The notes under the pieces were generated by a model, which saw only the letters and a list, made by a program, of their open reading frames with translations, was not told where the DNA came from and did no database searches. A program made the translations under genes and the position numbers. A stretch of DNA of 64,000 bases from an uncultured Candidatus Peribacteria bacterium (GTDB lineage: Bacteria; Patescibacteriota; Gracilibacteria; Peribacterales; Peribacteraceae), in contig CAYUVW010000002.1 of assembly GCA_964448405.1 (NCBI GenBank), positions 7,745-71,744 of the forward strand, in the 5' to 3' direction. Of the stretch, positions 5,929-26,929 are shown piece after piece. Each line of letters begins with the position of its first letter. Positions within the stretch are counted from its first letter, which is position 1.

Positions 5929-6624
5929 TTACGCGCCGGAAGTGGGATCAACGGGGTTCTCGGGCGTCAGCGACAGAATATAGGCATAGTCCGCCGCGAA
6001 GACTTTCTTCGCCCACCAGAGTACACCGCTAGCCATGAACGGAACAGCGAAAACGTCAATCGAGTAGTGTGCATGCGCCAGCAATACCGTGATTCCAAAC
6101 AGCGCCGAAAACAGCAGGAACATCCAGCGAATCGCCGGCTTTTCCCAGAACAGAAGAGCACAGATAAACGGATAGGCGGTGTGCCCTGAAAAGAAGAAGT
6201 CATTGGTGCCCGGGTTATAGACGAGCGCCTTGAACAATCCGCCATACCCCGGATCGATGACATCGGGCCGGAGACCCAAAGGAGTGAGCACCATGAAGAA
6301 CGCGCGTACGGCGAACAGCAGGCCAATGGCCTTGAGTGTAAACGGTACATATTCAAGATTGCGCAGGAGAATCCAGAGCAATGCGATCGTCATGAGCACT
6401 GGGCCCCAGACAATAAACCCAAATACATCTATGGCCGGCAGTCGATCGAGGAGCAGGTCGCGCGCCGGCGGCTGCGCGTACCCCAAATTGGTGGCGGCAT
6501 GTTGAGCTGCCATACTCAATAATCCGCACACCACGATCACCGGCAATGCCGACAAGAGGAGCCTGCGCCATCGCGTGTCACGCAAGACCGCGCTCAGCTT
6601 GGTTGGAGAGAATGCATGGGACAT
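5929..6624 (-). CDS. PAP2-superfamily membrane protein, sphingomyelin-synthase-like (PAP2_C) type
   Basis: Six hydrophobic segments. FFFSGHTAYPF and HAHYSIDVF match the SGHT and HYxxDV catalytic motifs of PAP2_C enzymes. TAGAAT lies 7 nt upstream of the ATG. Confidence 0.6.
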   Translation of the reverse strand: MSHAFSPTKLSAVLRDTRWRRLLLSALPVIVVCGLLSMAAQHAATNLGYAQPPARDLLLDRLPAIDVFGFIVWGPVLMTIALLWILLRNLEYVPFTLKAIGLLFAVRAFFMVLTPLGLRPDVIDPGYGGLFKALVYNPGTNDFFFSGHTAYPFICALLFWEKPAIRWMFLLFSALFGITVLLAHAHYSIDVFAVPFMASGVLWWAKKVFAADYAYILSLTPENPVDPTSGA

Positions 6625-6690
6625 GGGGTCGATTCTACCTCGCCGACCGATTTTGGACTATCCTGAGACCAAACCGTTCCCCCGCCTCTC

Positions 6691-7407
6691 ATGCAACACG
6701 ACATCATCCTCCGTCCATCGTATTCGGCGCTGAAGTGCACGCTCTCTCGAGGCGAAAAGCTGTGGACTGAGACCGGGGCGATGCTGGCCATGGACGCCGG
6801 CGCCACGATTGAAGGCAAAATGCAGGGCGGCATGTGGCAAGCGCTGAAGCGCACCATTCTCACCAACGAGAGCTTCTTCGTAACGGCAATCACCGCCAAA
6901 GATGACTCCACGGAAATCTACTTGGCACCGCGTGCGGTGGGCGACATTGAGGCCATTGAGCTGAAGGGAGAGGAATACGTGGTACAGGGCGGCGCATTTT
7001 TGGCATCCACCGAGAACATCACAACCGATGCGAAGTTCACCGGTTGGAAAGGTTTTGTAGGCGGCGAGGGCATCTTCATGATCAAGGCCAAGGGTGTCGG
7101 CACCATGTTCGTTTCCAGCTTCGGCGGCATTTTCCGCAAAGACATCCCGGCAGGAAAGCAGTTCATCGTGGACAACGGCCACTTGGTGGCGTTCCCCTCT
7201 TCCCTGCAGTACGAAATCAAATCGGTCGGTGGCGACATCGTGAACATGGTGACCAGCGGCGAAGGACTCGCCTGCGTATTCACCGGGCCGGGCAGCGTGT
7301 ATCTGCAAAGCCGTAATCTCCGCACGTTCGCTGAAACACTCAATCCGTTCTTGCCCGATCGTCAAAAGTCACAAGGACGCAGCATCTTGGGTCAGGTTTT
7401 TGGCTGA
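6691..7407 (+). CDS. TIGR00266/AIM24 (DUF124) family protein
   Basis: 238 aa, beta-rich. Motifs recalled for this family: GAMLAMD, ESFFVT, GEGIFMIKAKG, VDNGHLVAF, GEGLACVFTGPGSVYLQSRN. Confidence 0.7.
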   Translation: MQHDIILRPSYSALKCTLSRGEKLWTETGAMLAMDAGATIEGKMQGGMWQALKRTILTNESFFVTAITAKDDSTEIYLAPRAVGDIEAIELKGEEYVVQGGAFLASTENITTDAKFTGWKGFVGGEGIFMIKAKGVGTMFVSSFGGIFRKDIPAGKQFIVDNGHLVAFPSSLQYEIKSVGGDIVNMVTSGEGLACVFTGPGSVYLQSRNLRTFAETLNPFLPDRQKSQGRSILGQVFG

Positions 7408-7416
7408 ACAGGCGCC

Positions 7417-10400
7417 TCAGACGATTTTCTCACAACGTGAGTTGATGACTTCGGCGACGATGGACGCAATGATGATCAGCCCTCCTCCGACGAAGAACAG
7501 CACGTTTGTGTTGATGGTGTGACGGAAGAACAACAACTCGAACAAGAACGCGATGAACGGCGCCAAATTCAGCATCATGAACGCCAGCAAGCCGTCGATG
7601 CGCTTGAATGCCTCGAACGTGAGCACCAATCCGACGAGAGTAATAACACCCACGCCGATATTGGTCACCCACTGATTCATGGTCAGATTGAAGGTGATGT
7701 CGAGACCGAAGAAGAGATTGCCACCCAGAATCATCGCAAGCGTAGCGGCTGCGATCCAGACGAAATGATGCGTGGCGAGCGAGATGGTATTGGTGGCCAC
7801 GCCGCTGTATTTCACGTAGTGAATGTTGCTCATCATGAAGGCAACGTCCGAAAACGCGATCATGAGCGCGAACAAGTCGCCAAGCGCGCCTTGAGCCGTA
7901 GTTTGGAAATCGTTGTACACCAGCATGGTTCCACCGAGCGCACTGAGGCCGAACAACATGAAAATCTGCTGAATGCTCTTGGGTGAATTCAGGTACGAAA
8001 TGCGGCGGCGCCAAACCAAGAACGCCAGCAGCAATGCGAATACCGGCGCGTAGCTGAGCACCAAGTTCACGTTGGTGGCGGTGGTGAACAGCAGGCTCTT
8101 GTGCAGGAAGTAGTTGTACGACAAGTTGGCGAAAACGATGATCCAGAAATAGCGATTGTAGGGGGTTTTGTACGCCAGTTTTTGGCCGGATTTGTAGAAC
8201 AAATTCAGGATGAAGATAGCCGCAAAGCCCGATATCGCTCCGGCCACGGCCCAAATATGCACACGCAAGAGCGGACTGAGGGTTTGAATCGACGTGTAGC
8301 GGATCAACACCGGTTCGATGCCCCAAATAAACACCGCGCCGAACCGCAACAGGTACCCCGTGATTTTTTGGCGCCTTGCATTCTTGATGCTCTTAGCTCC
8401 GGCGATTGTAAGTGCGGCGCTCGGCGCACGTCGGGGCTCCAACTCGAACAATGTGCGCACGAATCGGTACCCCAAGAACAGCATGGCGAACGTAAACAGG
8501 AACAACACCATGAGCAGCGGAACTTGGCCGGTAAGCACCGGCAACTTCCACATGACAAGCAGCACGCCGAATACGTTGAGAACGAATCCAAGGCCGAAAA
8601 ACCATTGCTCGCGACGCATGCTCAACACGTAATGCTGCAGCAGGGACAAGAAATAGTAGTTGGCACCCAAAATAGGAATGAGCGGCAACACATGCAGCAA
8701 GAACAGCGGCATGGACGGAACGCCGGCGAACGCCTTGTAGTACTGCGGCAAGAGCAGCACGTAGCCGACCAAAACGCCCAGCGCCACAAGGAACGACAAC
8801 GTCAGACCGGCTCGCTGATGCATGGACAGCATCGTTTGCACTTTGGAAATCCAATCTTGGCGCTCCAAAATGTCGATGAAGTCAGCGAAATGCAGGCGAT
8901 CAAGTGACGCACCGGACAGATAAATTTCGAACGTGTGCGTCGCAGCATCGAAACGAATGACCGTTCCCGTAATGCTCACATCCGCCTCTTGAATCAGCTG
9001 ATTCAGGCGAACTTGCACATCGCGCTGGCGATCGGAAGTACCCGATACGCACAAGCGGAAGTTATAGCCTTTGCGCTGCAACAAGCGAACGAACGGGAAT
9101 CGACGGTGCTCCGGATACAAGTAGAACACAATGTCGCGCGCGCGAAGCACGCCTTCGCCGATCATGGTGATGACATCCTCGAAATCGCGGCGACGGAAGT
9201 GATCTGCAACGTGCTGCTGCTTGGCTTTTGGCAAATCGCGTACAAGACCCTTTTTGTAGAAATCGAGTTCACGCTGCAGCAAATCCATGCCAAGCATGAT
9301 CTTCTCGGAACGGTCACGCTGCTTCAGTACGTCGACGATCATGGAGCGTGCCAATCGTGTCTTCACATATTTGAGCCAATCGAACGTAATCACTTCATGA
9401 TCCGCCATGGTCACGTACACGTCGTCATCGGGCTTCAGAATGTGCGATAGCGCCGCAGGTTGGCCATCGATGCTGATGTGCTCTGCATTGCCGGCTCGTT
9501 CGCGGTACAACGCATAGACGGCATCCAGCGCGGTGGAATCCTTCGGAATGGCAATGCGCTGGCGATCCACGCAGACGGACATTGTTTCCCGCAGAATGTC
9601 CGATTCCAACGCATCCCAGAACTCGCCGCTATTTTCACGTGTCTGCAAATCAATTTCCGCCGAACGCTGCAACCAGGAGAATTTCGGACCGACACCCGCG
9701 CCGCGAAACAAGAATGTGGTTACGCCGAACTGGGCCTGCTCGTGCATTTCCGCAGTGCGCAAACGAATGTCGATCACCACGCCGTCGGGCAGGGTGACGT
9801 GCGTGTGCAAGCTGCGGTAACCGGACTCCGCCGGTACCGCGATATAGTCGCGGAACTTGCCGCTGACCGGGCGATACAGCGTATGAATATGCTTCAGAAG
9901 CTGGTAGCACGCCTCTTCGCTTTTTACGATCACGACTACAGAAAACGCATCGCTGGCAGCCGGTTGCCACATGCGCTCGCGCATACGCTGCAGAAATTTC
10001 AACAAATCGCGCGGCTGCATTTCCAGCATCTCCAGTGCGTTGTGCTCATCTTCTGCTCGCAGTTGACGCTCAATGGATGGAAACAGCAGTTCGCCTTGGG
10101 CGCACTCTGCATCGCGCAGTTTTTTCGCACGCTCACCGTCGTCGTCGAACGCATACGGTACGCAGAAATCGGCAAACGTCTGGCGTACGTCGCGCATGCC
10201 CAAGTGCAATGCCAGCTTGTGATAGACGTTCAGCGTTTCCAGCGCAAAACGCTTGCGACGTTCGGGGCTGGGCAACAAGTCGATGGTGTAAATGTTGTGC
10301 AGGCGGTCGGCCAGCTTGATGATGGCCACCCGGATGTCGCGGCGCATGACGTCGAACAGCTTGCGCAGCGTTTCCGTCTTACGATCCAAGGGCAGATCGT

Positions 10401-15235: not shown

Positions 15236-17575
15236 TTACACCGAAAAATGCTTGCGAAGCGCTTCAAGCTGTTTCTCATTCAGGATCGTACGCAGTTCCA
15301 CGTCGGTTGCCGCACGCACGCCATCGACAGAACCAAAACGCTTCAGTAGCGCGGCTTTCAGCAATGGGCCGACTCCGGGAATCTCGTCCAATGCCGACGC
15401 AAACGTGGCCTTCGTCATGCGAGTTTTACGCTTCTCATTGGCGAACCGGTGAGATTCATCGCGAATGCGCTGCAACAGGAATTGGGCCGGGTCCTGCTTG
15501 GGAATGGGAATCGGCATCGAGTCACCGGGTACGAAAATCTCTTCTTCACGCTTGGCAATGGACGCCAACGGAACATGTGAAAGCTCCAGTTCGCACAGCA
15601 CGTCGTAGACCGCACCAAGCTGGCCTTTGCCGCCGTCAATAAGGAGGAGATTGGGCACCGACGTGAATGAATCATCGGGCTTTTCCTTCTTCACGTCGTA
15701 GGAAAGGATAATACGACGCTCCTGGCCGGGGTGCTTCTCGGCCAAGCCGTCGACGTATTCTTTGAGTGCTTCATGTCCTTCGATGACATACCGAAAACCA
15801 AGCTGTGCGTAGGATTCCTCCAGCGCCGGATCGACAACCGCGTACACCTTTCCTTTATCTTGGGTCGCCAGCAACGTGCGGATAAGTACCGTGGCAACCA
15901 GACGTGCACTCTCGTTCGCCGTCCACACCGTACGCAGCACACGCACCGACGGCGTGCACTCAAACAGCTGTGCCGTACCAACGATTTCCTCGCCGTGTCG
16001 GGCAACCGCAAAATTTTTGTAGTGGATGGTGCGGTCTTCCAGAGAATCAGCATGAGCAGCTGCGACTTCTTCCAGTGTTTTTTGCTCAGCCTTGCGAGCT
16101 TTGCCGATCTCGATCCCCTGCTTGGAAAGACGCGCGCGGTCGGATTTCAGATCGTAGGCCAGGTACTTCAGGCGACGACGCAGGACTTCTGCCAATGATT
16201 GATAATCGTCGATATCGCCCTTTTTCAGACTCTTAATGGTAAAGGAGCGGTAATGCTGCCGCTTGGGTTTGCCGCTCTCGAACACAACCATACTGCCCAC
16301 CGTGTCGGCGCCGCCCATGTGTGAAATATCGTAACCCTCAATGCGCTTCGGCGCTTCCGGTAAGCCGAGCAACTTCCGCAGTGATTCGACTGCTTCTTCG
16401 GATTTGCGCAGTTCGGCTTCCCACGCCGCAAACTGCTGACGTACTTTTTCATCGGCGTTCTTCTCGGCCATTTCCAATAATTTGGATTTCTTGCCGCGCT
16501 CGGGAATCCACAGCTTCACCGCCTTGCCACGACGTTCGCGCAACCACGTCTCCAACAACGTCGCTTCGGGAATCGGATCGCGAACGATGACGGTATCCGG
16601 AATATCCTGCGTGTCGGCATAGTATTGCGGCAGGAATTGCGCCATGGCTTCGGCGGCATTCTCCGCCTCTCCTTTCAGGGCGAAGCCCACCTGTTCAATG
16701 ACTTTGCCGTCGCGTTCACGCAGCAATACAACCTGAATCTTGCCCTGACGGAACGCGATGCCGAAGACGTCTGCATTTTCTCCCGATGTATCCGACACGA
16801 TCTGCCTGCTTTCCAAATCCGCAATGAATTTGAGTACGTCGCGCAGTCGAGCGGCGACCTCGAACTTCCTGTCCTTTGCCGCAGCGAACATTTTTTCTTC
16901 CGCTTTCTTTTTCACCGATTGCAAATTGCCGCGAAAGAACCGTTCAACTTCGCCGATGCGCTCTGCATACTCCGCTTGCGACAATGAGCCGATGCACAGG
17001 CCGCAGCACTTGCCGATCTGAAACTCCAAACAAGGAGTATCCAGCATCTTGGCGGCAGCCTGCGTCGTGTGATTCAGTGCATCGAGTGATTTGCGGCACG
17101 CACGGAATTTCAAAATGCCATCGAGCATATCCAGCGTGGCATTGGTAGAAGACGCGCCCAAGAACGGCCCGAAATACTTTGCTCCGTCTTCTTCCAGGCG
17201 CCGCACGACCTCGACACTCGGGTATGAATCCTGCACCGACAGGCGCACGTACACATATCCTTTGTCGTCCTTCAGCATGATGTTGTACTTCGGCTTCAGC
17301 TTCTTAATAAGGTTGGACTCCAACATGAACGCTTCCAACTCGCTGCGCACGATGGTGACGTCCACATCGGCGATCTGCTTCACCATAATGGCTTTCCACG
17401 GGTCCAATTTGGCGCCGGGCGCCACGTAACTCCGCAGACGGTTGCGGATGTTCTTGGCTTTGCCGACGTACATCACGTTGCCTTCTTTATCGAGCCAGCG
17501 GTACACGCCGGGCTCGGTAGAGGCAGCACCGATGCGTCGGCGCAGCCTGGCCATGGGATTATCGGACTCCGCCAT
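15236..17575 (-). CDS. uvrC: excinuclease ABC subunit C with a ~170-aa internal insertion
   Basis: GIY-YIG (PGVYRWLDKEGNVMYVGKAKNIRNRLRSY), UVR (FEVAARLRDVLKFI), endonuclease domain (IEGYDISH ... LLLIDGGKGQL) and HhH2 (IPGVGPLLKAALLKRFGS). 779 aa, versus about 600 for a typical UvrC. Confidence 0.9.
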   Translation of the reverse strand: MAESDNPMARLRRRIGAASTEPGVYRWLDKEGNVMYVGKAKNIRNRLRSYVAPGAKLDPWKAIMVKQIADVDVTIVRSELEAFMLESNLIKKLKPKYNIMLKDDKGYVYVRLSVQDSYPSVEVVRRLEEDGAKYFGPFLGASSTNATLDMLDGILKFRACRKSLDALNHTTQAAAKMLDTPCLEFQIGKCCGLCIGSLSQAEYAERIGEVERFFRGNLQSVKKKAEEKMFAAAKDRKFEVAARLRDVLKFIADLESRQIVSDTSGENADVFGIAFRQGKIQVVLLRERDGKVIEQVGFALKGEAENAAEAMAQFLPQYYADTQDIPDTVIVRDPIPEATLLETWLRERRGKAVKLWIPERGKKSKLLEMAEKNADEKVRQQFAAWEAELRKSEEAVESLRKLLGLPEAPKRIEGYDISHMGGADTVGSMVVFESGKPKRQHYRSFTIKSLKKGDIDDYQSLAEVLRRRLKYLAYDLKSDRARLSKQGIEIGKARKAEQKTLEEVAAAHADSLEDRTIHYKNFAVARHGEEIVGTAQLFECTPSVRVLRTVWTANESARLVATVLIRTLLATQDKGKVYAVVDPALEESYAQLGFRYVIEGHEALKEYVDGLAEKHPGQERRIILSYDVKKEKPDDSFTSVPNLLLIDGGKGQLGAVYDVLCELELSHVPLASIAKREEEIFVPGDSMPIPIPKQDPAQFLLQRIRDESHRFANEKRKTRMTKATFASALDEIPGVGPLLKAALLKRFGSVDGVRAATDVELRTILNEKQLEALRKHFSV

Positions 17576-19235: not shown

Positions 19236-19266
19236 GTGCTGTCGTTCAGATGTTGTGCGCTACCCT

Positions 19267-19486
19267 GAGGTTTCCGTTTTCTTCGGAGCTTGGGCACGGT
19301 GGGCTTGTCGCGCCTGATCCGGTGCCGTCACGCTTCCGCCGAAGCAACCCGTAAAAAAGTCCGCCTGTTCGAGCTCGCCGCAGCGAGCGAGTTCGGACTT
19401 TTAGGGTTGTGAGGCGCGTGAAGCGTAGGCCAGCCGGAGCACCGCGCGACGTTTTTTGCTCAACTTTTTTCTAAAAAAAGTGGAAG
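19267..19486 (+). repeat. copy 1 of a 220-nt structured intergenic element (second copy at 63670-63889)
   Basis: Collinear with 63670-63889 in the same orientation. The core imperfect hairpin is 19330-19426, followed by T6 (19452-19457) and the A/T palindrome ACTTTTTT-CTA-AAAAAAGT. Confidence 0.8.
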
Positions 19487-19573
19487 AACAAACGCTCTCG
19501 CGGCGATTATGGAATCGCCGCTACGAGAAGTATTGGGCGAAATTGGCTAGGATTCGCCGGAGTCCTGGAGTCG

Positions 19574-19618: not shown

Positions 19619-19981
19619 TTATATCTGACTCATCTTGCCCCCCTTGCGCTTCATTTTGTGCGCACGTTCGCGACCGGTGTGCTTTTCTTTGTAGCGCTTG
19701 ATCTGCGACTCGAGTTTTTCGATGCAGCTGTCGACGGCGAGCAAAGCCTCGAACTTGCGGGACTCGGCACGCAGAACGGTACCCGGCAGGTGCACGGTGA
19801 TCATCACTTTCACCTGATCGCGGCTCTTTTTCGTGTCGCGGCCTTCGGCCTCAACGCGAATGGAGGAGCCTTCGTCCTTCAGACGCTTGCAGTACGTTGC
19901 AAGCTTGCCGATCTTTTTGGCTAACAGAAGCAGGTCTTTGTCGTCGTAACGGACACCTTTTTCGAAGTGTTCAACATGCAT
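19619..19981 (-). CDS. hpf: ribosome hibernation promoting factor / RaiA family (short form)
   Basis: 120 aa from ATG 19981 (MHVEHFEKG). The layout KVMITVHLPGTVLRAESRKFEALLAVDSCIEKLESQIKRYKEK is typical of the sigma-54 modulation protein/S30EA fold. Confidence 0.7.
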   Translation of the reverse strand: MHVEHFEKGVRYDDKDLLLLAKKIGKLATYCKRLKDEGSSIRVEAEGRDTKKSRDQVKVMITVHLPGTVLRAESRKFEALLAVDSCIEKLESQIKRYKEKHTGRERAHKMKRKGGKMSQI

Positions 19982-20160
19982 GAGGAAAAGCGGGAAACGA
20001 AGTGAAAAAAGCATAGCAGATGCCAAAAAAGTTTCCAGCGCAGCTTCAGAAAAAATCAAGAGAAGCATTGTCACTGAAACGCGGCCGAGACGCCCTCTTC
20101 CGCAAAAACGGCTTTTCGGGTATACTAAGGAGAAATACCCAAAACCCAACCCCCTACCCA

Positions 20161-20391
20161 ATGGACGTCGATTCTCTGCGCCGGAAGGTGACCGAAAGCC
20201 GACTGCTCACGGAGCGGGAGCGCGATTATTGGCTCCAGAAACTACCAAATATGACCCAAGAGCAGTTGATGAAGCTGGATCGAATCCTGACTGAAGCACT
20301 GGGAATCGTGTGGAGCGAACAGATGGACGGCTACCTGAAAATGATCGATCGCGCGGCAAATCTCTGCCAACAGAAACTCGTGGCAGCCTAA
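20161..20391 (+). CDS. hypothetical small helical protein (first gene of the ORFan operon)
   Basis: 76 aa from ATG 20161; ATG 20020 is an alternative. TATACT lies at 20121-20126. Sense-like composition. No family recognised. Confidence 0.5.
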   Translation: MDVDSLRRKVTESRLLTERERDYWLQKLPNMTQEQLMKLDRILTEALGIVWSEQMDGYLKMIDRAANLCQQKLVAA

Positions 20392-20423
20392 CGCACACAA
20401 ACACTCACTCCCCCTTCCCGACC

Positions 20424-21674
20424 ATGCCTCCACGCACTCCAGACAGCTTCACGGGCGGTAACGGCGAAATGCCGCGCAACAACGAACAGCGCGAAAAAGC
20501 TAAAAAGGAAGTGAAGCAGCAGCTTCGCAAGCTCATGGCTGACGTGCGCACCCGTGGCGACGAAGAGCGCCGCACGGGACCCGATCGCAACGAGAAGCGT
20601 CTGAAAGAACTGACTGAACAAATCGACCGCCAGCAGCGTGAGGTGCTCGCCACGTTTGCCCTGCTGCTGAATCCGGACGGTTCGCTGCCCGAGGATCTGC
20701 AGAAGGAGTTCGCCGCCGAGTTCAGCGATAAACAGTCGGCTGAATTCATCAATAATCTCATCAACGGCGACGCCAACCGACTGAGCACCGATGCCACAAA
20801 CCTCGGCCGCAGCATCGACGGACAGCCGCCGATCTCGCGCGCCGCAAACTTTGCCGGCCGCATAGAAGGCCGTCTGAGCGACATGATCGACGGATTCATT
20901 CAGGATCGCGGTATTTTCTCCATGATCAGCGAGCGAACCGGCATGTCCGAACAGGTACTGGCCAAACAATTCCAGCAGGTGCGTCCGTTCCTGATGAACG
21001 CCATTCGCGGCATGTTCGCCAACATCGCCGAGAACTTCAAAATGATTCCGGGCGCTCAGGAATTCGCCATTCGCACGCGCGTGGAGGGCACATGGCCTGC
21101 GCTTCTGAAACTGAAAATGCAGGATCAGAACATCGCCAAACGCATCCGTGCCCGCGGCGAGAACGTCGTAAAAGAGCTGTACATCAACGCCATGGTCGGC
21201 CAAGCCGCCAATCGCCAGCTTGCACAGCAGGCAGGCCAGCCGATGCCGACCGGCGAAGTCACGCTGGAATCGGTACTCGGCATCACCGCTCCGACCGGCT
21301 CGCCTGCTCCGGCCCCCTCCACAACTGAGCAAGGCGCGAAGAAAGAAGCCGCCGCCGTCAATCGTCCACTCGGCGCCGCCGAGACGATACAGGACATGCA
21401 GATGAGCTTCTTGAACAACGAATTCCGCGTCCAGAAAGGCTCCGATACCTTCAAGGCGACGGCTAAACACGGCAACGACGCAGCCACCGTGACGGAAGTT
21501 ACGCCGATCCGCCAAGGCACCGGCCCCGTGGAAACCTTGACCATCAAAACTCGCAAAGGAACCGAAGACCTGACGAAGACGGTGCGTGCCAATGACATAA
21601 AGACCGCACTTGAACCCAACGGTAACAAGCGTGTGATTGTGGACAACGTCACGCTTGAATTCACACGCGTCTAA
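20424..21674 (+). CDS. hypothetical protein, coiled-coil N-terminus and beta-rich C-terminus
   Basis: 416 aa from ATG 20424. Lys/Glu/Arg-rich heptad-like N-terminus. No recognisable catalytic motif. Confidence 0.65.
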   Translation: MPPRTPDSFTGGNGEMPRNNEQREKAKKEVKQQLRKLMADVRTRGDEERRTGPDRNEKRLKELTEQIDRQQREVLATFALLLNPDGSLPEDLQKEFAAEFSDKQSAEFINNLINGDANRLSTDATNLGRSIDGQPPISRAANFAGRIEGRLSDMIDGFIQDRGIFSMISERTGMSEQVLAKQFQQVRPFLMNAIRGMFANIAENFKMIPGAQEFAIRTRVEGTWPALLKLKMQDQNIAKRIRARGENVVKELYINAMVGQAANRQLAQQAGQPMPTGEVTLESVLGITAPTGSPAPAPSTTEQGAKKEAAAVNRPLGAAETIQDMQMSFLNNEFRVQKGSDTFKATAKHGNDAATVTEVTPIRQGTGPVETLTIKTRKGTEDLTKTVRANDIKTALEPNGNKRVIVDNVTLEFTRV

Positions 21675-21680
21675 CCGCAC

Positions 21681-23666
21681 ATGATGCCTCCTGTTCTCGG
21701 TACCGGCTCCCACCTCGACGGCTTGCTGCCGACCTCCACGTCGACCGCACCGCGTCCGCCTGAAGCGGATGTAAAAGCAGCACGCTCACTCGCTGCGCGC
21801 ATTGCTCCGGCTACAATGGAGGAATTCTTCAGCGGCGTCCGCACCCAGACACATACCCAGTTGGAGGCGCTCGCCTTCGTGTTGCACGAGGAGTACCCCA
21901 ACCGCATTACCGATCAGGTGAAAAAAGAAGTGGCAGAACGCTTGGTTGCACTGCGTCAAGAAGTTGCGCAAGGAAGCGTCAACTTGCCCGAAGGACTGAG
22001 TGATACCGCAAAAATTGAGGCAGAGCTGAAGCGTACGGAAAATCGCCTGGAATGGGTGCGTCGTTTACTGACCCGTCCCGCACCCGTCACTCCGGTGACG
22101 CCCGTTCAACCTCCTGCACCGTCGTTCCTCACCGATTTCTTCGGCGGACTGACCACGCGCGTGATGACCATGTTCAATGGACGACCGCCGACTGTGCAGC
22201 AAGTCGCTGCCGTGCAAACGCAGACATCGGGCATTACACGTAACCTTGCCGAAGCAGGCGAACGCCTCGTCGACAGCGTAATCGCCTCGCCCGAAACGCT
22301 CAGCAGGATCCCGGTGATCGGCTCCGCGCTTGCCGCGCCGATCAACATCATCGGCGGACTCATGGGAATCAATCCTGCTACGCGCGCCGAACGTCTTGAG
22401 CGCCGTCAGGCCGAGCGTCAACTGCGCACTGCATTGACCGCCCGCAACGTCGTCTGCCCCAACCCAACCATCGACAGCTTGACGTTGTCCGTCCTGAAAG
22501 GTCAGCCCGTCGTTCCTGGTGCACCGGCGCCGGCTCCGTCCACCGCTCCGGTCAATATCATTCAGCTGCTGGATAACTGGGTTGCAACGCAGCGGTTGAA
22601 CGGCATGCCTGTCACGCAGCAACTGGTGTTGAACTCCGTCGCAGAGCTCGCACCTCCAAACGTAGACGCACTGAATAAGCAGGCTCAGGCCAAGCGTGCA
22701 GTGGACGCCCGCAACGCACTCACCGACGGTATCGGCAAGCGCCTGCGCCGTCCGGTGGCCACGCTCACCAACGGCACCGACGTGCAGATGCAGGCCACGG
22801 GCGCCGGCATTGCCCTCACCGCTCGTATCGGCGATTTGAACACGCCTGGAGCCATTCCTCCTCTTGGAACACCCGCGAACACACCGACCACGACTCCTGC
22901 GAGCACTCGTGACTTCGACGACACCGGCACACCGGTCAGTCCCGAAGCCAAGACGCTCGCTGGCGCAATGATCAAATTCCCACGCGCCACCAAAATTCGC
23001 ATCGTGGCGAATGGAAACACCGAGATGACCAACTCCAACGAATACACGATTGCGGTCGGAAGTTTCGATGAAACAGGCAGCGCACAGAACGATACCGCTA
23101 AGACGCTCGTTGGAGCTTGCACGAAGTTCCCGACTGCCAAGGAAGTGAAAATTACGGCAAGCGGCACCATGGAATGCAACGGTACCGGCGCGAACAAAAA
23201 GTACACCCTCATCGCTGGCAGCATCGACGACACTGGAAACGGAACGTCGCCCGAAGGAACGTTGTTCCTGAGTGCAATCGAAGGACTGAGTGCCGCAACC
23301 AAAATTGCGGTGACCACATCTGCAACGCCATTGGAAATCCGCAACCAGACTGAGTTCTCCATTCCGGTCGGTTCGGATACCGACATCGCCAATCTGCAGA
23401 TTCTTGCCGGAATGCCCCGCGACAGCCGTGCGCAGCGCATTGTTATCGACGGAAGCATGCGCCGCAACGTGCCGCTGGTGGAATGGCGCAACAGCAGCCT
23501 CATCCACTTGGGTTCGCATCCGCAAACCATCGCCATGCTGCGCGGCAGGACATGGGGTTCATTGCTCGACGACAAAGAGGTTGGGGTAACACTGCAGTAC
23601 AACCGCGACACGAGAAACTGGACTGACACCAATCCGACGACCCGCACTCCCCCTCTTCCCATTTAG
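21681..23666 (+). CDS. hypothetical protein with Pro-rich linkers, a Gly-rich hydrophobic segment and 3-4 tandem ~50-aa repeats
   Basis: 661 aa, starting 7 nt after the previous stop. Segment IPVIGSALAAPINIIGGLMGI. Repeats span aa 413-612. Confidence 0.7.
   Translation: MMPPVLGTGSHLDGLLPTSTSTAPRPPEADVKAARSLAARIAPATMEEFFSGVRTQTHTQLEALAFVLHEEYPNRITDQVKKEVAERLVALRQEVAQGSVNLPEGLSDTAKIEAELKRTENRLEWVRRLLTRPAPVTPVTPVQPPAPSFLTDFFGGLTTRVMTMFNGRPPTVQQVAAVQTQTSGITRNLAEAGERLVDSVIASPETLSRIPVIGSALAAPINIIGGLMGINPATRAERLERRQAERQLRTALTARNVVCPNPTIDSLTLSVLKGQPVVPGAPAPAPSTAPVNIIQLLDNWVATQRLNGMPVTQQLVLNSVAELAPPNVDALNKQAQAKRAVDARNALTDGIGKRLRRPVATLTNGTDVQMQATGAGIALTARIGDLNTPGAIPPLGTPANTPTTTPASTRDFDDTGTPVSPEAKTLAGAMIKFPRATKIRIVANGNTEMTNSNEYTIAVGSFDETGSAQNDTAKTLVGACTKFPTAKEVKITASGTMECNGTGANKKYTLIAGSIDDTGNGTSPEGTLFLSAIEGLSAATKIAVTTSATPLEIRNQTEFSIPVGSDTDIANLQILAGMPRDSRAQRIVIDGSMRRNVPLVEWRNSSLIHLGSHPQTIAMLRGRTWGSLLDDKEVGVTLQYNRDTRNWTDTNPTTRTPPLPI
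22917..23516 (+). repeat. tandem coding repeats (~50 aa x 3, plus one degenerate unit)
   Basis: Units start DDTGTPVSPEAKTLAGAMIKFPRATKIRI, DETGSAQNDTAKTLVGACTKFPTAKEVKI and DDTGNGTSPEGTLFLSAIEGLSAATKIAV. Each ends in xxGS(F/I). Confidence 0.7.
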
Positions 23667-23687
23667 AGCTCTCTACCCAAATTTTTT

Positions 23688-24548
23688 ATGGCGAACGAAC
23701 TCGATCAATTCCAGGCAAAGATCACAACCCTCACCGGGGATTTGCAGCGCGCCGTTGCCACGCCTCCGGAAGGCTTGTCCGCGCTTCACCGGAATTACAT
23801 TTCCTTGGCGCTGAGCCGGCTGCAAGGTGCAACCACTCGCAATAGCGTGCTTACGGAATTACGCGGTTTGCGCACGCAATTGCCGCAGGATGCACGAGGG
23901 TTGGCCGAAATTCAGACCCAAACCACGGCACTGGAAACAGAAATGCAGTCCTGGGATGAACGCAATATCGTTACACCGACGACAAACCTGATTTCTTCCG
24001 CGGCATTGACCGGCCAGGAACTCTATCGCGATGCACCTTGGTACGTACGAGCGCCGGTGCTTGGATCAATGATCGGTGGTGCGGCATGGATAGGGTCCAA
24101 ACTGTTTGGCTGGGTACCAGGCATTGGCCCGGCATTGAAAAAGGGGTCATTTTGGCACTACGTCGGTGGCGGAGCTGTCCTTGGTCTTGCAGGCACAGGT
24201 GCAGTAAAGGGCATAGGAGCACTGCAGGAATCCAATAAAAAGAGCACTGAGGAGAAGGTAGCAGCCGATACGAATACAAGGCTCACTGCACATATGGAGC
24301 GCATTCTCTGGCCCGCGGGCGGCAATGCGATTGTGATGCCCGAATTGCTTCCGGCCACGCAGTTCCCGCTTACGGAGGTAGAAATCCGTCAAACCGGACC
24401 CACTGGAAGCAGTGCATTCACTCCAGTTGTCGCACGAAACGTTGCGCATAACATTACGGTCGATCCGACCGCAACACAGGTGGAAATCCGCTTCAAATTA
24501 CCTAACGGCACAACTGGCACAGTCACCAGAACCAGACCGCCTGCGTAA
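23688..24548 (+). CDS. hypothetical membrane protein (helical N-terminus, two Gly-rich TM segments, beta-rich C-terminus)
   Basis: 286 aa. APVLGSMIGGAAWIGSKLFGWV and FWHYVGGGAVLGLAGTGAVKGI. Confidence 0.65.
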   Translation: MANELDQFQAKITTLTGDLQRAVATPPEGLSALHRNYISLALSRLQGATTRNSVLTELRGLRTQLPQDARGLAEIQTQTTALETEMQSWDERNIVTPTTNLISSAALTGQELYRDAPWYVRAPVLGSMIGGAAWIGSKLFGWVPGIGPALKKGSFWHYVGGGAVLGLAGTGAVKGIGALQESNKKSTEEKVAADTNTRLTAHMERILWPAGGNAIVMPELLPATQFPLTEVEIRQTGPTGSSAFTPVVARNVAHNITVDPTATQVEIRFKLPNGTTGTVTRTRPPA

Positions 24549-24567
24549 GAAGAGGTAAAATGATTCC

Positions 24568-25368
24568 ATGCCTCTCTCGTACTCGCAGCTCCAGTGCTAC
24601 CAACGCTGTCCCAAACAGTACGAATTCGCCTTCGTAAAGAAAGTCCCGCGCGGGATCTCCATGGGTGAATCGTTCGGCAGCAGCGTTCATTTGGCGCTGA
24701 AGAAGTGGGGTGAACTGGAAGCAAGTTTGGCGCCCAAAGCCGCAACCGGACAGATTGCACTTTTCACTGAAGAATCGCACGGACCTGAGCAGAAACTAGA
24801 TCTGCACACGCTGAAGACGCTGTGGCGCCACAGCTTTGTTTCGCAGGGTTACGAATCACGCGCCGCACAAGACTCTGCGTTACTGCAAGGCGAGCATGCA
24901 CTCGAGCATTTTTTCCGTTGGTGGCAGACCGAAAAGCGCGAAGTGGCGGCATGCGAGAAAGGTTTCAGCGTGGAATTGCCAGCCTCCGAGAGCAAACCGG
25001 CGGTCAGCATCGCGGGGCGCTTCGACCGGGTGGAGCGCACCGACAAAGGCTTGGTGGTCATCGACTTCAAATCCGGTCAACCGCGAGACCAACTGCATAT
25101 CGACACCGATTTGCAGTTATCCATTTACGCCGCCGCCACGCAGAAGCTCTGGAATGAGCCTGCCGTCGAACTCAAATTACTCTTCTTGGGCGAAGAGGAG
25201 TTGATTGAGCGCGTAACCACGCGCAACGCATCGCAAATCAACGATGCAATGAAAATCATCCGCATGCTTGCCGACGACATGGAGAGTAAGAACTACAAGC
25301 CCTCGCCGGCAGTCGGAAAATGCCGCCATTGCCCGTACCGCGAGATTTGTCCGGCACGGGCAATTTGA
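24568..25368 (+). CDS. PD-(D/E)XK nuclease, Cas4/AddB-like with a four-Cys Fe-S cluster signature
   Basis: N-terminal YSQLQCYQRCPKQYEF, core GRFDRVERTDKGLVVIDFKSGQ (D...DxK) and C-terminal CRHCPYREIC. Confidence 0.75.
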   Translation: MPLSYSQLQCYQRCPKQYEFAFVKKVPRGISMGESFGSSVHLALKKWGELEASLAPKAATGQIALFTEESHGPEQKLDLHTLKTLWRHSFVSQGYESRAAQDSALLQGEHALEHFFRWWQTEKREVAACEKGFSVELPASESKPAVSIAGRFDRVERTDKGLVVIDFKSGQPRDQLHIDTDLQLSIYAAATQKLWNEPAVELKLLFLGEEELIERVTTRNASQINDAMKIIRMLADDMESKNYKPSPAVGKCRHCPYREICPARAI

Positions 25369-25404
25369 AGTTCCTCATCCCTGCCTACCGGCAGGCAGGC
25401 CCGG

Positions 25405-25430
25405 CCCCTCTCCATTGCAATGGAGAGGGG
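25405..25430. terminator. perfect palindromic hairpin between convergent genes
   Basis: CCCCTCTCCATTGCAATGGAGAGGGG: an 11-12-bp stem with no strong T-run. Confidence 0.5.
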
Positions 25431-25455
25431 TTAGGGGTGAGGACCGTTCGAAGAA

Positions 25456-26199
25456 TCAGCCATTAATACCCATGTTGCGCAGCAAGACGCCCACGCCATA
25501 CGCAGAAGCGGCACACAGCGAGCCAACCAACAGGATTTCCAATGGACCTTTGTAGATGCGTTCGCGCGTCACCCAACTGCGCAAGAGCCCCACAATAAGC
25601 AATGCTACGCCAGTTGCCGCGATAGCAGATGGAAAGCGCTGATCATCTGCGATAGGCAAAACGTAGGGAAAAATGGGGATGCTGCCGAAGAACAAAAAAG
25701 CAATGAATGTCATGAAGCCGTGCAGTGCAGGCAGCTCAGTCTCTTCTTTCTTCAAGCCGTGCTCTTCACTCATCATGGTATCGACCCAAATCTGGCGGTC
25801 GCTCGTAATGCGGTGTACGACCATATCGAGCTCAGGACCGGAGAAACCTTTGGCTGCGTAGATTTCACGAATTTCCTCGCGTTCGATCTCCGGAATCTCA
25901 TCGATCTCACGCAACTCCTCTTTCTGCAAACGGTTGTAGTTGTCCTCGCGGGACTTAATGGACAAGTAATTTCCCAAGCCCATGGAAAGGCCATCGGCCA
26001 GCACGTTTGCGTAGCCTAGGATAATAACTATCGTGGGCGACAAGTGTGCCCCGGCAACACCGGATACCACCGCGAACGTGGTGACAATGCCATCGTTGGC
26101 ACCGTACACGATGTCGTGAATGAATTCGCCAAGCTTGCTGCCGTGCGGCTCGGACTTTTTGTGATCGGCCAATGCTTTTTTGAGTTCTTCTGGATTCAT
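25456..26199 (-). CDS. VIT1/CCC1-family iron/manganese transporter
   Basis: [25 protein letters not shown] and the C-terminal TM bundle. Start at ATG 26199; the TTG at 26241 lies inside the upstream terminator. Confidence 0.8.
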
Positions 26200-26240
26200 G
26201 TCCTTATTGTCCAACTGTCGAAGATTTTGCGCAACCCACA

Positions 26241-26264
26241 AAAAAACCGCCCGAAGGCGGTTTT
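26241..26264 (-). terminator. intrinsic terminator after the eRF1-like gene
   Basis: Minus strand reads AAAACCGCC-TTCG-GGCGGTTTTTTT. Confidence 0.75.
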
Positions 26265-26281: not shown

Positions 26282-26827
26282 CTACTTGCTCTTCTTGGGC
26301 GGTTGGTTCTTGGGGCTGTAATTCTCCTGGCTACGAAGGTTTTCCAACGCCTCCTTCAAGTCGGGGCGGAAGCGGAGCAAGACATCGCGCGGAGATTCCT
26401 TGGCGTAGTTGCCGTCCATCGTCTCGTGCACGGCCTTCTTGATTGCCGGGTTGAAGTGGTCCTTCAGCACCGAGAGGAACTTACCGGGAGCCGAGATATA
26501 GATTTCCTGGATCCCCTGCTCCTGAATGACGTGGGCCAAGTGGCCGCACACCACGTTTGCGAATTCTCGCAGACGGTGCGTCTCGCGCTGGTTCGGGTCT
26601 TCGACGCCTCCGGTCATTCCACCACGGCCTCCTGCTGCGGGGCTCTGGTAGCGTCCGGCCTTGTCGGTGAAGTTCGGTTCGCGGGAATCGATGGTCTCGG
26701 CAACGAGCAGGGTGTGGTTCCCTACGTCGATGAATTTGCAGTGGTGGTTATCACACACGACAAGAAGAGTCGGCTTGTCTACATCTGGCATGGCGTCGGG
26801 AAGACGCTGGGGTTTGTTGGTGGGCAT
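26282..26827 (-). CDS. host-attachment-protein family (bacterial eRF1-like, baeRF) protein
   Basis: [37 protein letters not shown] and [10 protein letters not shown] fit the Host_attach layout as I remember it. The start is uncertain (26827, 26791 or 26899). Confidence 0.45.
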
Positions 26828-26929
26828 ACGGTGGCAGAGTGTAGCAAGGCCGGGGGGTGGGTGCCATGGCAAACCGTCATTCACGTGCGCATGGCACATC
26901 GTTGAGTTATCCTAGACCTCTTTCTCTCT

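What the first reader, a model, noticed from the sequence alone, without database searches (positions are those of the whole stretch)
20161..25368. Five-gene operon: four proteins with no recognisable family, followed by a Cas4-like Fe-S nuclease
The genes are same-strand and tightly spaced, with gaps of 32, 6, 21 and 19 nt. The operon is bounded by the divergent hpf promoter region and by a terminator hairpin at 25405-30. The products are 76, 416, 661 and 286 aa, and none matches a family I can recognise. The three larger proteins share a layout: a coiled-coil-like N-terminus, a Pro-rich or Gly-rich hydrophobic middle (IPVIGSALAAPINIIGGLMGI; APVLGSMIGGAAWIGSKLFGWV and FWHYVGGGAVLGLAGTGAV), and a beta-rich C-terminus. 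Small shared strings hint at distant paralogy. PEGLS occurs in the N-terminal helices of the 661-aa and 286-aa proteins. TEVTPIRQGTGP in one protein resembles TEVEIRQTGPTG in another, near the C-termini of the 416-aa and 286-aa proteins. The last gene is a PD-(D/E)XK nuclease with the C...CxxCx5C cluster of Cas4/AddB. Membrane-associated structural or coiled-coil proteins combined with a nuclease form the least explained block in the window. This block is a candidate for a novel envelope-associated or DNA-handling system.
Basis: partly seen in the sequence, partly recalled or inferred. Interest (0 to 1): 0.62.

Follow-up and report, generated by a model that had tools for sequence, protein, structure and literature searches.

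The report
Fast-evolving orphan gene module beside nuclease
An uncultured wastewater bacterium (Candidatus Peribacteria) has a small set of very fast-evolving proteins that match no known family or fold, one of them swapped wholesale between close relatives, sitting next to an ordinary stand-alone DNA-cutting enzyme that is probably not an obligatory partner.

Summary
The five same-strand genes exist as described, with gaps of 32, 6, 21 and 19 nt. g1-g4 hit nothing in Pfam, NCBIfam or PADLOC. AlphaFold models of g2 and g3 have confident beta domains, but Foldseek finds no match in PDB (g2, g3) or BFVD (g3). An exhaustive profile search of 1.84 billion proteins finds g3 only in its own genus.

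The genes are not accidental ORFans. dN/dS is 0.05-0.13. Helical/hydrophobic-hairpin/beta proteins lie divergently next to hpf in all 12 Peribacteraceae genera examined, as a trio, a pair, a single gene or one giant protein.

g4 is a replaceable cassette. Between two species whose flanks are 87-95% identical in DNA, identity collapses at the g4 start codon and returns at the nuclease start codon.

g5 is a solo Cas4-family Fe-S nuclease; the genome has no Cas1. It is inherited vertically. Four genera keep the module without it, and another family has it without the module. The proposed nuclease-coupled system is therefore weakly supported.

The proposed g2/g4 paralogy is not supported.

Best reading: a family-specific, probably membrane-anchored protein module of unknown role, plus an independent repair-type nuclease.

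The parts
19619..19981 (-). hpf (ribosome hibernation factor). It is the divergent neighbour that marks the locus in every Peribacteraceae genome examined.
   Evidence: PF02482, E 8.4e-11. Orthologues at 59-71% identity in 10 other genera.
19982..20160 (.). Divergent intergenic region between hpf and g1, presumably holding both promoters. It contains TATACT and AAGGAG at about 20121-20133.
   Evidence: Sequence read. The sigma-70 scan calls no promoter here. Metatranscriptome contigs start at 19855-19937 and run into g2.
20161..20391 (+). g1: a 76-aa helical protein, found only in this genus. It carries an ERxYW..LP.MT.EQ motif that is shared with a 134-aa ORF elsewhere in the genome.
   Evidence: ORF. 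No family hit. A 76-aa orthologue exists in G001. Weak paralogue at genome C4:26076-26480, E 2e-4. Absent in G011, where g2-like starts 68 nt from hpf.
20424..21674 (+). g2: 416 aa. Helical bundle (aa 20-285), disordered Pro/Ala linker (289-312) and a beta domain of about 95 aa (320-416). No hydrophobic segment.
   Evidence: AF2 mean pLDDT 74, beta domain about 90. Foldseek PDB best E 0.12. 64-97% identity within the genus. dN/dS 0.05. The profile finds nothing outside the genus in 400 class genomes except one marginal 16-bit hit.
21681..23666 (+). g3: 661 aa. Low-confidence helical N-terminus, conserved Gly/Pro hydrophobic motif (aa 212-230, nt 22314-22370), Pro/Thr linkers, and a C-terminal array of helix+3-strand repeats (aa 410-650, nt 22908-23630).
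   Evidence: AF2 pLDDT 85-95 for aa 410-650. D[DE]TG repeat starts at aa 413, 463 and 516. Foldseek best E 2.6 in PDB and 0.24 in BFVD. Only same-genus hits in 5.8e9 and 1.84e9 protein searches. dN/dS 0.13. hhalign to the G011 480-aa neighbour gives P 88%, E 3e-6.
23688..24548 (+). g4: 286 aa. Helical N-terminus, two Gly-rich hydrophobic segments joined by a basic loop (aa 122-179, nt 24051-24224) and a small beta C-terminus. This is a hypervariable, replaceable cassette.
   Evidence: 23% aa identity to the G003 orthologue, against 97% for g2 and 88% for g3. DNA identity is 87-95% in the flanks and 42% inside, with breaks at the g4 ATG and the g5 start. This allele is unique in 5.8e9 proteins. 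The g4 profile against the G011 310-aa neighbour gives P 97%, E 2e-11. A further allele boundary lies at 24567 in run X11.
24568..25368 (+). g5: a solo Cas4-family / AdnB-AddB-type PD-(D/E)XK nuclease with a 4-Cys Fe-S site.
   Evidence: PF12705, E 1.4e-34; PF01930, 26 bits. TIGR00372 scores 59.1 bits, below its cut-off of 65. Nearest PDB entry is the AdnB nuclease domain 6ppu, E 8.5e-8. Cys and catalytic motifs present. No Cas1 in the genome. Orthologues in 11 of 20 other genera, 41-55% identity.
25403..25430 (.). Perfect 13-bp hairpin in the spacer between the convergent g5 and VIT genes. It probably marks the transcript end, but it is not a canonical intrinsic terminator.
   Evidence: dG -49.5 kcal/mol for the 87-nt spacer, z -5.3. 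No T-run; not called by the scan. A co-occurring strain replaces the spacer with 67 other letters.

Best explanation
The block is two things placed side by side.

(1) g2-g3-g4, plus the genus-specific g1, form a Peribacteraceae-specific protein module. It is vertically inherited at a fixed chromosomal position, divergent from hpf, and it evolves so fast that sequence similarity is lost between genera. Its proteins combine an N-terminal helical or coiled-coil part, Pro/Ala/Thr-rich spacers and a C-terminal beta domain. g4 and its counterparts carry a Gly-rich hydrophobic hairpin with a basic loop.

Inferred, not shown: the hairpin anchors the assembly in the cytoplasmic membrane, g2 and g3 are its partners, and the beta domains are the interaction surfaces. 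g4 is exchanged as a whole-gene cassette by recombination in the conserved flanks. This pattern is expected for a protein under diversifying selection, for example from contact with phages or partner cells.

(2) g5 is a stand-alone Cas4-family Fe-S nuclease of the AdnB/AddB nuclease-domain type. It most likely acts in DNA end processing or repair on its own. It is probably co-transcribed here but is not an obligate part of the module.
For: No known family or fold for g1-g4. g3 and g2 are confined to the genus by sequence.

Purifying selection: dN/dS is 0.05 for g2 and 0.13 for g3, against 0.03 for L25.

The same locus holds analogous proteins in all 12 genera inspected. A trio occurs in the G000 genus, G011, G005 and G017. 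Pairs occur in G014 and G020, and a single gene in G016. A giant protein of 1082-1627 aa with a helical N-terminus and a hairpin occurs in G008, G015, G018 and G022.

Homology to G011 is significant for g4 (E 2e-11) and for the g3 N-terminus (E 3e-6).

Cassette replacement of g4 has exact boundaries, and another allele boundary lies at 24567 in a co-occurring strain.

Nuclease: domain, motifs, nearest PDB relative and absence of Cas1. Its identity declines in step with taxonomy: 66-92% within the genus, 41-55% within the family, 28-34% within the class. The module occurs without the nuclease in four genera (G005, G014, G015, G017), and the nuclease without the module in G027.

Metatranscriptome contigs bridge every junction.
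Against: Membrane anchoring is not shown. The g4 hydrophobic segments are weak (KD 1.1-1.3). No protein has a signal peptide. The Arg-rich stretch after the g3 hydrophobic segment argues against an N-in/C-out topology.

Similarity of g4 to the giant proteins is not significant (E 0.003-0.012), so grouping the locus forms rests on position and architecture.

g2 against the G011 g2-like protein is not significant.

In 8 of 8 family-level loci where g5 is present, it directly follows the module. The gap in the window is 19 nt. A functional link in those lineages is therefore not excluded.

RNA evidence comes from assembled contigs with flat depth, including over the neighbouring genes, so DNA carry-over is possible.
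Confidence: 0.45

Rival explanations
1. All five genes form one envelope-coupled DNA-handling or anti-phage system. The membrane-anchored coiled-coil proteins sense or contact incoming DNA or phage, g4 is a swappable sensor, and the Cas4-like nuclease is the cytoplasmic effector. The logic is like Zorya or Kiwa.
For: Tight spacing, with contigs from RNA libraries spanning the g3-g4-g5 junctions. g5 directly follows the module in every family genome that has it. Whole-gene allele replacement of g4 fits an arms race. g5 hits PADLOC Cas4 and DruK models.
Against: The module persists without the nuclease in G005, G014, G015 and G017. The nuclease occurs without the module in G027. The locus is fixed and vertically inherited between hpf and VIT/proS. 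It is not patchy or island-like as defence systems usually are. There are no PADLOC hits for g1-g4. The nuclease evolves at a housekeeping-like rate.
Confidence: 0.15
2. g2-g4 are cytoplasmic structural or scaffold proteins, for example a lineage-specific cytoskeletal or division-related assembly. On this view the Gly-rich hydrophobic stretches are protein-protein or amphipathic motifs rather than membrane spans.
For: No signal peptides. KD is only 1.1-1.8, and the g3 segment contains Pro and is strongly conserved as a motif (PVIGxALAAPIN), which is unusual for a simple anchor. The G011 g3-like protein lacks a clear hydrophobic stretch at the equivalent place. The module is present in all genera examined, as a core cellular function would be.
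Against: Cytoplasmic housekeeping scaffolds rarely diverge beyond recognition within a family or undergo whole-gene allele replacement. Counterparts in other genera have much stronger paired hydrophobic segments (G022, G015 and G018). Pro/Thr-rich linkers followed by beta domains are typical of extracytoplasmic regions (established knowledge).
Confidence: 0.2
3. The block is an accidental juxtaposition of spurious or decaying lineage-specific ORFs, or a remnant of a prophage or mobile element, with no function as a unit.
For: No homologues outside the genus by sequence. CPR genomes are rich in orphan genes (general knowledge).
Against: dN/dS is 0.05-0.13. AF2 gives confident, repeat-structured beta domains. 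Position and architecture are conserved in 12 genera. GC content matches the surrounding window. There are no paralogues or repeats of g2-g4 in the genome and no viral fold match for g3.
Confidence: 0.04

Closest known systems
Solo-Cas4 / Cas4-family PD-(D/E)XK Fe-S nucleases (phylogenomics in PMC5704561; Methanosarcina solo-Cas4 in PMC12501428)
   Same: g5 has the RecB-like nuclease core (GRFDR, IDFK, QLSIY), one N-terminal and three C-terminal Cys, a size of about 270 aa, and lies outside any CRISPR-cas locus.
   Different: It scores below the TIGR00372 equivalog cut-off (59.1 against 65 bits). It is vertically inherited at a fixed locus in one CPR family. Its closest solved relative is a helicase-nuclease domain, not a CRISPR Cas4.
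AdnB / AddB nuclease domains of helicase-nuclease end-resection machines (PDB 6ppu, 6ppj, 7sjr)
   Same: This is the best sequence match in the PDB (E 8.5e-8, aa 94-265), including the C-terminal Cys cluster. Class-level relatives carry the homologous domain inside proteins of 950-1140 aa.
   Different: g5 has no helicase part. The genome holds a separate 1093-aa ORF with its own PDDEXK_1 domain.
Zorya / Kiwa-type defence systems (a membrane-embedded sensor plus a cytoplasmic DNA-targeting effector); comparison recalled from general knowledge
   Same: On paper there is a combination of membrane-associated coiled-coil proteins with a nuclease gene in one operon, and one component is hypervariable.
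   Different: g1-g4 have no PADLOC or Pfam hit. The locus is syntenic and vertically inherited rather than island-borne. The nuclease is dispensable in four genera.
Proteins with a bilobed hydrophobic hairpin (chlamydial Inc proteins, reticulon-like hairpin anchors); comparison recalled from general knowledge
   Same: g4 and its counterparts have two hydrophobic segments of about 20 aa separated by a short basic loop and flanked by soluble domains. They diverge rapidly.
   Different: There is no sequence relation and no secretion system context. The hydrophobicity of the window's g4 is weak.

Membership tests
Cas4 family (TIGR00372 / PF01930) | Profile score at or above the curated cut-off | tested here: inconclusive
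   PF01930 scores 26.0 bits, above its cut-off of 22.7. TIGR00372 scores 59.1 bits, below its equivalog cut-off of 65. The superfamily model PF12705 scores 120.6 bits, far above its cut-off of 22.
Cas4 family (TIGR00372 / PF01930) | Four-Cys Fe-S site (one N-terminal Cys plus C-x2-C-x5-C) and a RecB-type D...(D/E)xK core | tested here: met
   C10/C14 and C252-x2-C255-x5-C261. GRFDR at 150, IDFK at 165, QLSIY at 183.
CRISPR-associated Cas4 (adaptation module) | Encoded with cas1/cas2 or next to a CRISPR array | tested here: not met
   No Cas1 (PF01867) anywhere in the 95.8%-complete genome. PADLOC finds no other cas protein in the block.
AddB/AdnB helicase-nuclease | Nuclease domain fused to a UvrD-like helicase (or helicase-like) body of about 1000 aa | tested here: not met
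   g5 is 266 aa and only its aa 94-265 align to the AdnB C-terminus. The TIGR02786 score of 23 bits is far below its cut-off of 486.
Known anti-phage defence systems (PADLOC-DB v2) | At least the core set of system proteins recognised in one locus | tested here: not met
   g1-g4 have zero hits. Only g5 hits single-protein Cas4 and DruK models.
Any Pfam / NCBIfam family for g1-g4 | Profile match above the curated cut-off | tested here: not met
   Searches give only sub-threshold coiled-coil noise. The same holds for the counterparts in eight other genera.
Known protein folds (PDB for g2 and g3; BFVD for g3) | Foldseek match with E <= 0.001 to the confident model regions | tested here: not met
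   g3 best E is 2.6 in PDB and 0.24 in BFVD. g2 best E is 0.12 in PDB. AlphaFold DB was not available.
Diversity-generating retroelement target | Variation confined to a short variable region at adenine-templated sites | tested here: not met
   The whole g4 ORF is unalignable (42% DNA identity over 861 nt), with breaks at the gene boundaries. A reverse transcriptase was not searched for.
Integral membrane protein (for g3, g4) | At least one hydrophobic span of TM quality, with consistent topology signals | tested here: inconclusive
   KD-19 is 1.79 for g3 aa 212-230 and 1.1-1.3 for the two g4 segments. There is no signal peptide, and the charge bias around the g3 segment is contrary to N-in. 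No dedicated TM or signal-peptide predictor was available.

The most novel reading that the evidence does not exclude
g2-g4 form a previously unrecognised membrane-anchored apparatus specific to Peribacteraceae. Its g4 subunit is a swappable specificity cassette. In about half of the genera the apparatus hands DNA, either phage DNA or scavenged environmental DNA, to the adjacent Cas4-like nuclease. This would be a new envelope-coupled DNA-interception or uptake system in a CPR lineage.
Probability: 0.12. Interest if true: 0.75.

Novelty: categorically new. Interest (0 to 1): 0.42.

Why it matters
CPR/Patescibacteria genomes are full of proteins with no known relatives. Few of these have been shown to be real, conserved in position and structured. 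Here an apparently genus-restricted set of orphans turns out to be one rapidly diverging module, present next to hpf in every Peribacteraceae genus examined. It has a confidently predicted but unmatched repeat fold and one subunit that is replaced as a cassette.

This makes it a concrete target for asking what these bacteria expose or anchor at their envelope, and what drives its diversification. Candidate drivers are phages and partner cells.

The analysis also shows that the eye-catching neighbour, the Cas4-like nuclease, is probably an ordinary solo repair-type enzyme rather than part of a new system. That tempers the finding. The interest is moderate: there is no functional evidence, and orphan modules of this kind are common in CPR genomes.

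Tried and rejected
- **Profile libraries.** Pfam, NCBIfam and PADLOC scans of g1-g4, and Pfam scans of 14 counterparts in other genera, gave nothing.
- **Word-indexed searches of 5.8e9 proteins.** g3 gave 5 hits, all in the genus. g4 found only itself. The G018 giant protein gave 2 hits.
- **Exhaustive g3 profile search of 1.84e9 representatives.** It gave 3 same-genus hits.
- **g2 profile over 400 class genomes.** It gave nothing real.
- **Foldseek.** The g3 and g2 models against PDB, and g3 against BFVD, gave no match with E <= 0.001.
- **Paralogy among g2, g3 and g4.** Rejected.
- **Prophage or mobile-element origin.** Rejected on synteny, composition and absence of viral fold matches for g3.
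- **Homology of g4 or g3 to the giant proteins at the same locus.** Not significant, so this link is kept only as positional and architectural analogy.
- **Higher dS around g4 as a sign of long-lived balanced alleles.** Not pursued, because the G000/G003 identity is mosaic (65-100%) across the whole region, including VIT.
- **Expression level from metatranscriptomes.** Only assembled contigs with flat depth were available, so they show presence and junction continuity, not abundance.
- **Loci of other genomes.** They could not be loaded into the Python box, so those comparisons used the alignment tools.
Full report
**1. Observation**

The window is part of contig C2 of a 1.46-Mb, 95.8%-complete genome. 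Its relatives are named Candidatus Peribacteria.

ORF listing confirms five + strand genes:
- g1: 20161-20391, 76 aa
- g2: 20424-21674, 416 aa
- g3: 21681-23666, 661 aa
- g4: 23688-24548, 286 aa
- g5: 24568-25368, 266 aa

The gaps are 32, 6, 21 and 19 nt. Upstream and divergent lies hpf (PF02482). Downstream and convergent lies a VIT-family transporter.

The spacer between g5 and VIT holds a perfect 13-bp hairpin at 25403-25430. The spacer folds at -49.5 kcal/mol, z -5.3. The hairpin lacks a U-tract, and the terminator scan did not call it.

g1-g4 have no significant hit in Pfam, NCBIfam or PADLOC.

g5 is a PDDEXK_1 protein (E 1.4e-34) with the Cas4/AddB-type Cys pattern and catalytic motifs.

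**2. Are g1-g4 real genes?**

Yes. Four other species of the genus keep the same order, hpf | g1-g5 | VIT. Amino-acid identities to the window are 64-97% for g2 and 45-88% for g3.

Between the window genome and its closest species (G003), dN/dS is 0.05 for g2, 0.13 for g3 and 0.064 for g5. Ribosomal protein L25 gives 0.029.

AlphaFold2 with the five-sequence alignments gives confident C-terminal domains.
- g3, aa 410-650: pLDDT 85-95. It forms four to five repeats of one helix plus three strands.
- g2, aa 320-416: a nine-strand beta domain at pLDDT about 90. It follows a helical bundle (aa 20-285) and a disordered Pro/Ala linker.

**3. Are they related to anything known?**

No.
- Foldseek finds no match with E <= 0.001 for either model in the PDB (best E 2.6 and 0.12).
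- Foldseek finds none for g3 in the viral BFVD library (best E 0.24).
- g3 has five relatives among 5.8 billion proteins, all in the genus.
- An exhaustive HMM search of 1.84 billion cluster representatives gives three hits, all from the same genus.
- The g2 profile finds nothing credible in 400 genomes of the class.
- The window's g4 allele matches only itself.
- There are no paralogues of g2-g4 in the genome.

**4. The locus is family-wide**

Sequence searches fail beyond the genus, so I followed the flanking genes instead.

The Cas4-like g5 has orthologues in 11 of 20 other genera of the family, at 41-55% identity. hpf is present in all ten genera that lack a g5 orthologue.

In every genus inspected, the space next to hpf is filled by co-directional ORFs with the same building plan: a helical or coiled-coil N-terminus, Pro/Ala/Thr-rich linkers, Gly-rich hydrophobic segments and a beta-rich C-terminus.

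| Form next to hpf | Genomes |
|---|---|
| Trio | G000 genus; G011 (408/480/310 aa); G005 (304/383/356 aa); G017 (377/408/344 aa) |
| Pair | G014 (400/434 aa); G020 (204/395 aa) |
| Single 273-aa gene | G016 |
| Shorter protein plus a giant of 1082-1627 aa | G008, G018, G022, G015 |

The giant proteins begin with a coiled coil and a paired hydrophobic hairpin.

Profile comparison proves homology for g4 against the G011 310-aa protein (probability 97%, E 2e-11). It supports homology for the g3 N-terminus (88%, E 3e-6). It does not reach significance for g2 or for the giant proteins. Those links rest on position and architecture only.

The loop between the two hydrophobic segments repeatedly reads K-x-G-[FW]-[FLW]-K-[KR]. 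This was seen by eye. None of these counterparts has a Pfam family. A genome of another family shows no comparable genes next to hpf.

**5. g4 is a cassette**

Between G000 and G003, g2 is 97% and g3 is 88% identical in protein, and g5 is 92%. g4 is only 23% identical.

The DNA alignment shows 87% identity in the g3 3' end and 95% in the g3-g4 spacer. Identity then drops abruptly to about 33-42% from the g4 ATG to just before the g5 start codon. It returns at once to 95% in g5.

Elsewhere the two genomes are a 65-100% mosaic, so g4 is a clear outlier.

The other four species share one g4 type (N-terminus EIPREGDLKDAP). The window genome carries a different, very distant version with the same architecture.

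In public metagenomes, near-identical strains carry the window's allele on a 3.5-kb contig. In the same run (X11), another contig matches the window only from position 24568 onwards. It has 165 unlike letters upstream. This is a further allele ending exactly at the nuclease start.

Whole-gene divergence with gene-boundary breakpoints is not the pattern of a diversity-generating retroelement.

**6. The nuclease**

g5 meets the Pfam Cas4 and PDDEXK_1 thresholds, but it falls below the NCBIfam Cas4 equivalog cut-off. Its closest solved relative is the nuclease domain of mycobacterial AdnB.

The genome has no Cas1. It has one other PDDEXK_1 domain, inside a 1093-aa ORF.

g5 identity falls in step with taxonomy, which indicates vertical inheritance.

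G005, G014, G015 and G017 keep the module but have no Cas4-like gene. A solo Cas4-like gene in another family (G027) sits among HD-domain, XerD-like and ComEC-like genes instead.

Where g5 exists in the family, it always directly follows the module.

**7. Transcription**

Four wastewater metatranscriptome assemblies contain 100%-identical contigs bridging g1-g2, g2-g3, g3-g4 and g4-g5. One example is contig 23497-24643 in X6. This is consistent with one transcript.

Depth is flat, at about 5-8, and it is the same over neighbouring genes. Contigs carry no strand. DNA carry-over therefore cannot be excluded.

**8. Membrane association**

Kyte-Doolittle scans give one segment of TM quality in g3 (aa 212-230, KD 1.79). 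They give two weak Gly-rich segments in g4 (KD 1.1-1.3) and none in g2 or g1. No protein has a signal peptide.

The g3 segment is a conserved motif containing Pro and is followed by an Arg-rich helix. Counterparts in other genera have stronger paired segments.

Membrane anchoring through the g4-type hairpin is therefore the most likely reading, but it is an inference.

**9.

The PEGLS and TEV...IRQ strings exist. However, PEGLS is not conserved in the orthologues, and the g4 TEV...IRQ string recurs only in G001. Shared 5-mers are near chance. Profile-profile comparison of g2 and g4 finds nothing. Paralogy is not supported.

**10. Verdict**

The most likely reading (about 0.45) is a family-specific, fast-evolving, probably membrane-anchored protein module with a swappable subunit. 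A vertically inherited solo Cas4-family nuclease lies next to it and probably works independently.

A single nuclease-coupled envelope system remains possible (about 0.15). A purely cytoplasmic scaffold is also possible (about 0.2).

The function of g1-g4 is unknown, and no tool available here could establish it.

Noticed in passing
window 20161-20391 and genome C4:26076-26480: g1 shares the motif ERxYW(L/I)..LP.MT.EQ...L..IL with a 134-aa ORF that lies directly downstream of greA on another contig. This may be a small uncharacterised helical domain family in this lineage.
   Followed up: partly
window 25369-25455: The hairpin-bearing spacer between the convergent g5 and VIT genes is replaced by 67 unrelated letters in a near-identical strain from run X11. 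The spacer is therefore itself variable between strains.
   Followed up: no
window 25456-26241 (VIT) versus L006: DNA identity between G000 and G003 within the VIT gene swings from 100% to 70% and back. This points to frequent homologous recombination between these species across the whole region.
   Followed up: partly
L024 (G006:C1:19429-20193): The Cas4-like orthologue of genus g3 contains one in-frame TGA. This could be a pseudogene, a sequencing error or recoding.
   Followed up: no
window 19261-19547: Summed contig depth in two of the RNA-library assemblies is three to four times that of the surroundings (24-27 against about 7).
   Followed up: no
window 15236-17575 and L035:9735-12077: The long (779-780 aa) UvrC with an internal acetyltransferase-like insert is also present in another genus (G016). 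The insert is therefore conserved in the family.
   Followed up: no
window 26282-26899: A conserved ORF starting [28 protein letters not shown] travels with VIT in the G000 genus (seen in G002 and G003), G011 and G016. Its family was not checked.
   Followed up: no
L034 (G011) 6766-7698: The g4-like gene of G011 is interrupted by a masked run of N. Its C-terminal part continues in another frame (6569-6901), so its full sequence is uncertain.
   Followed up: no
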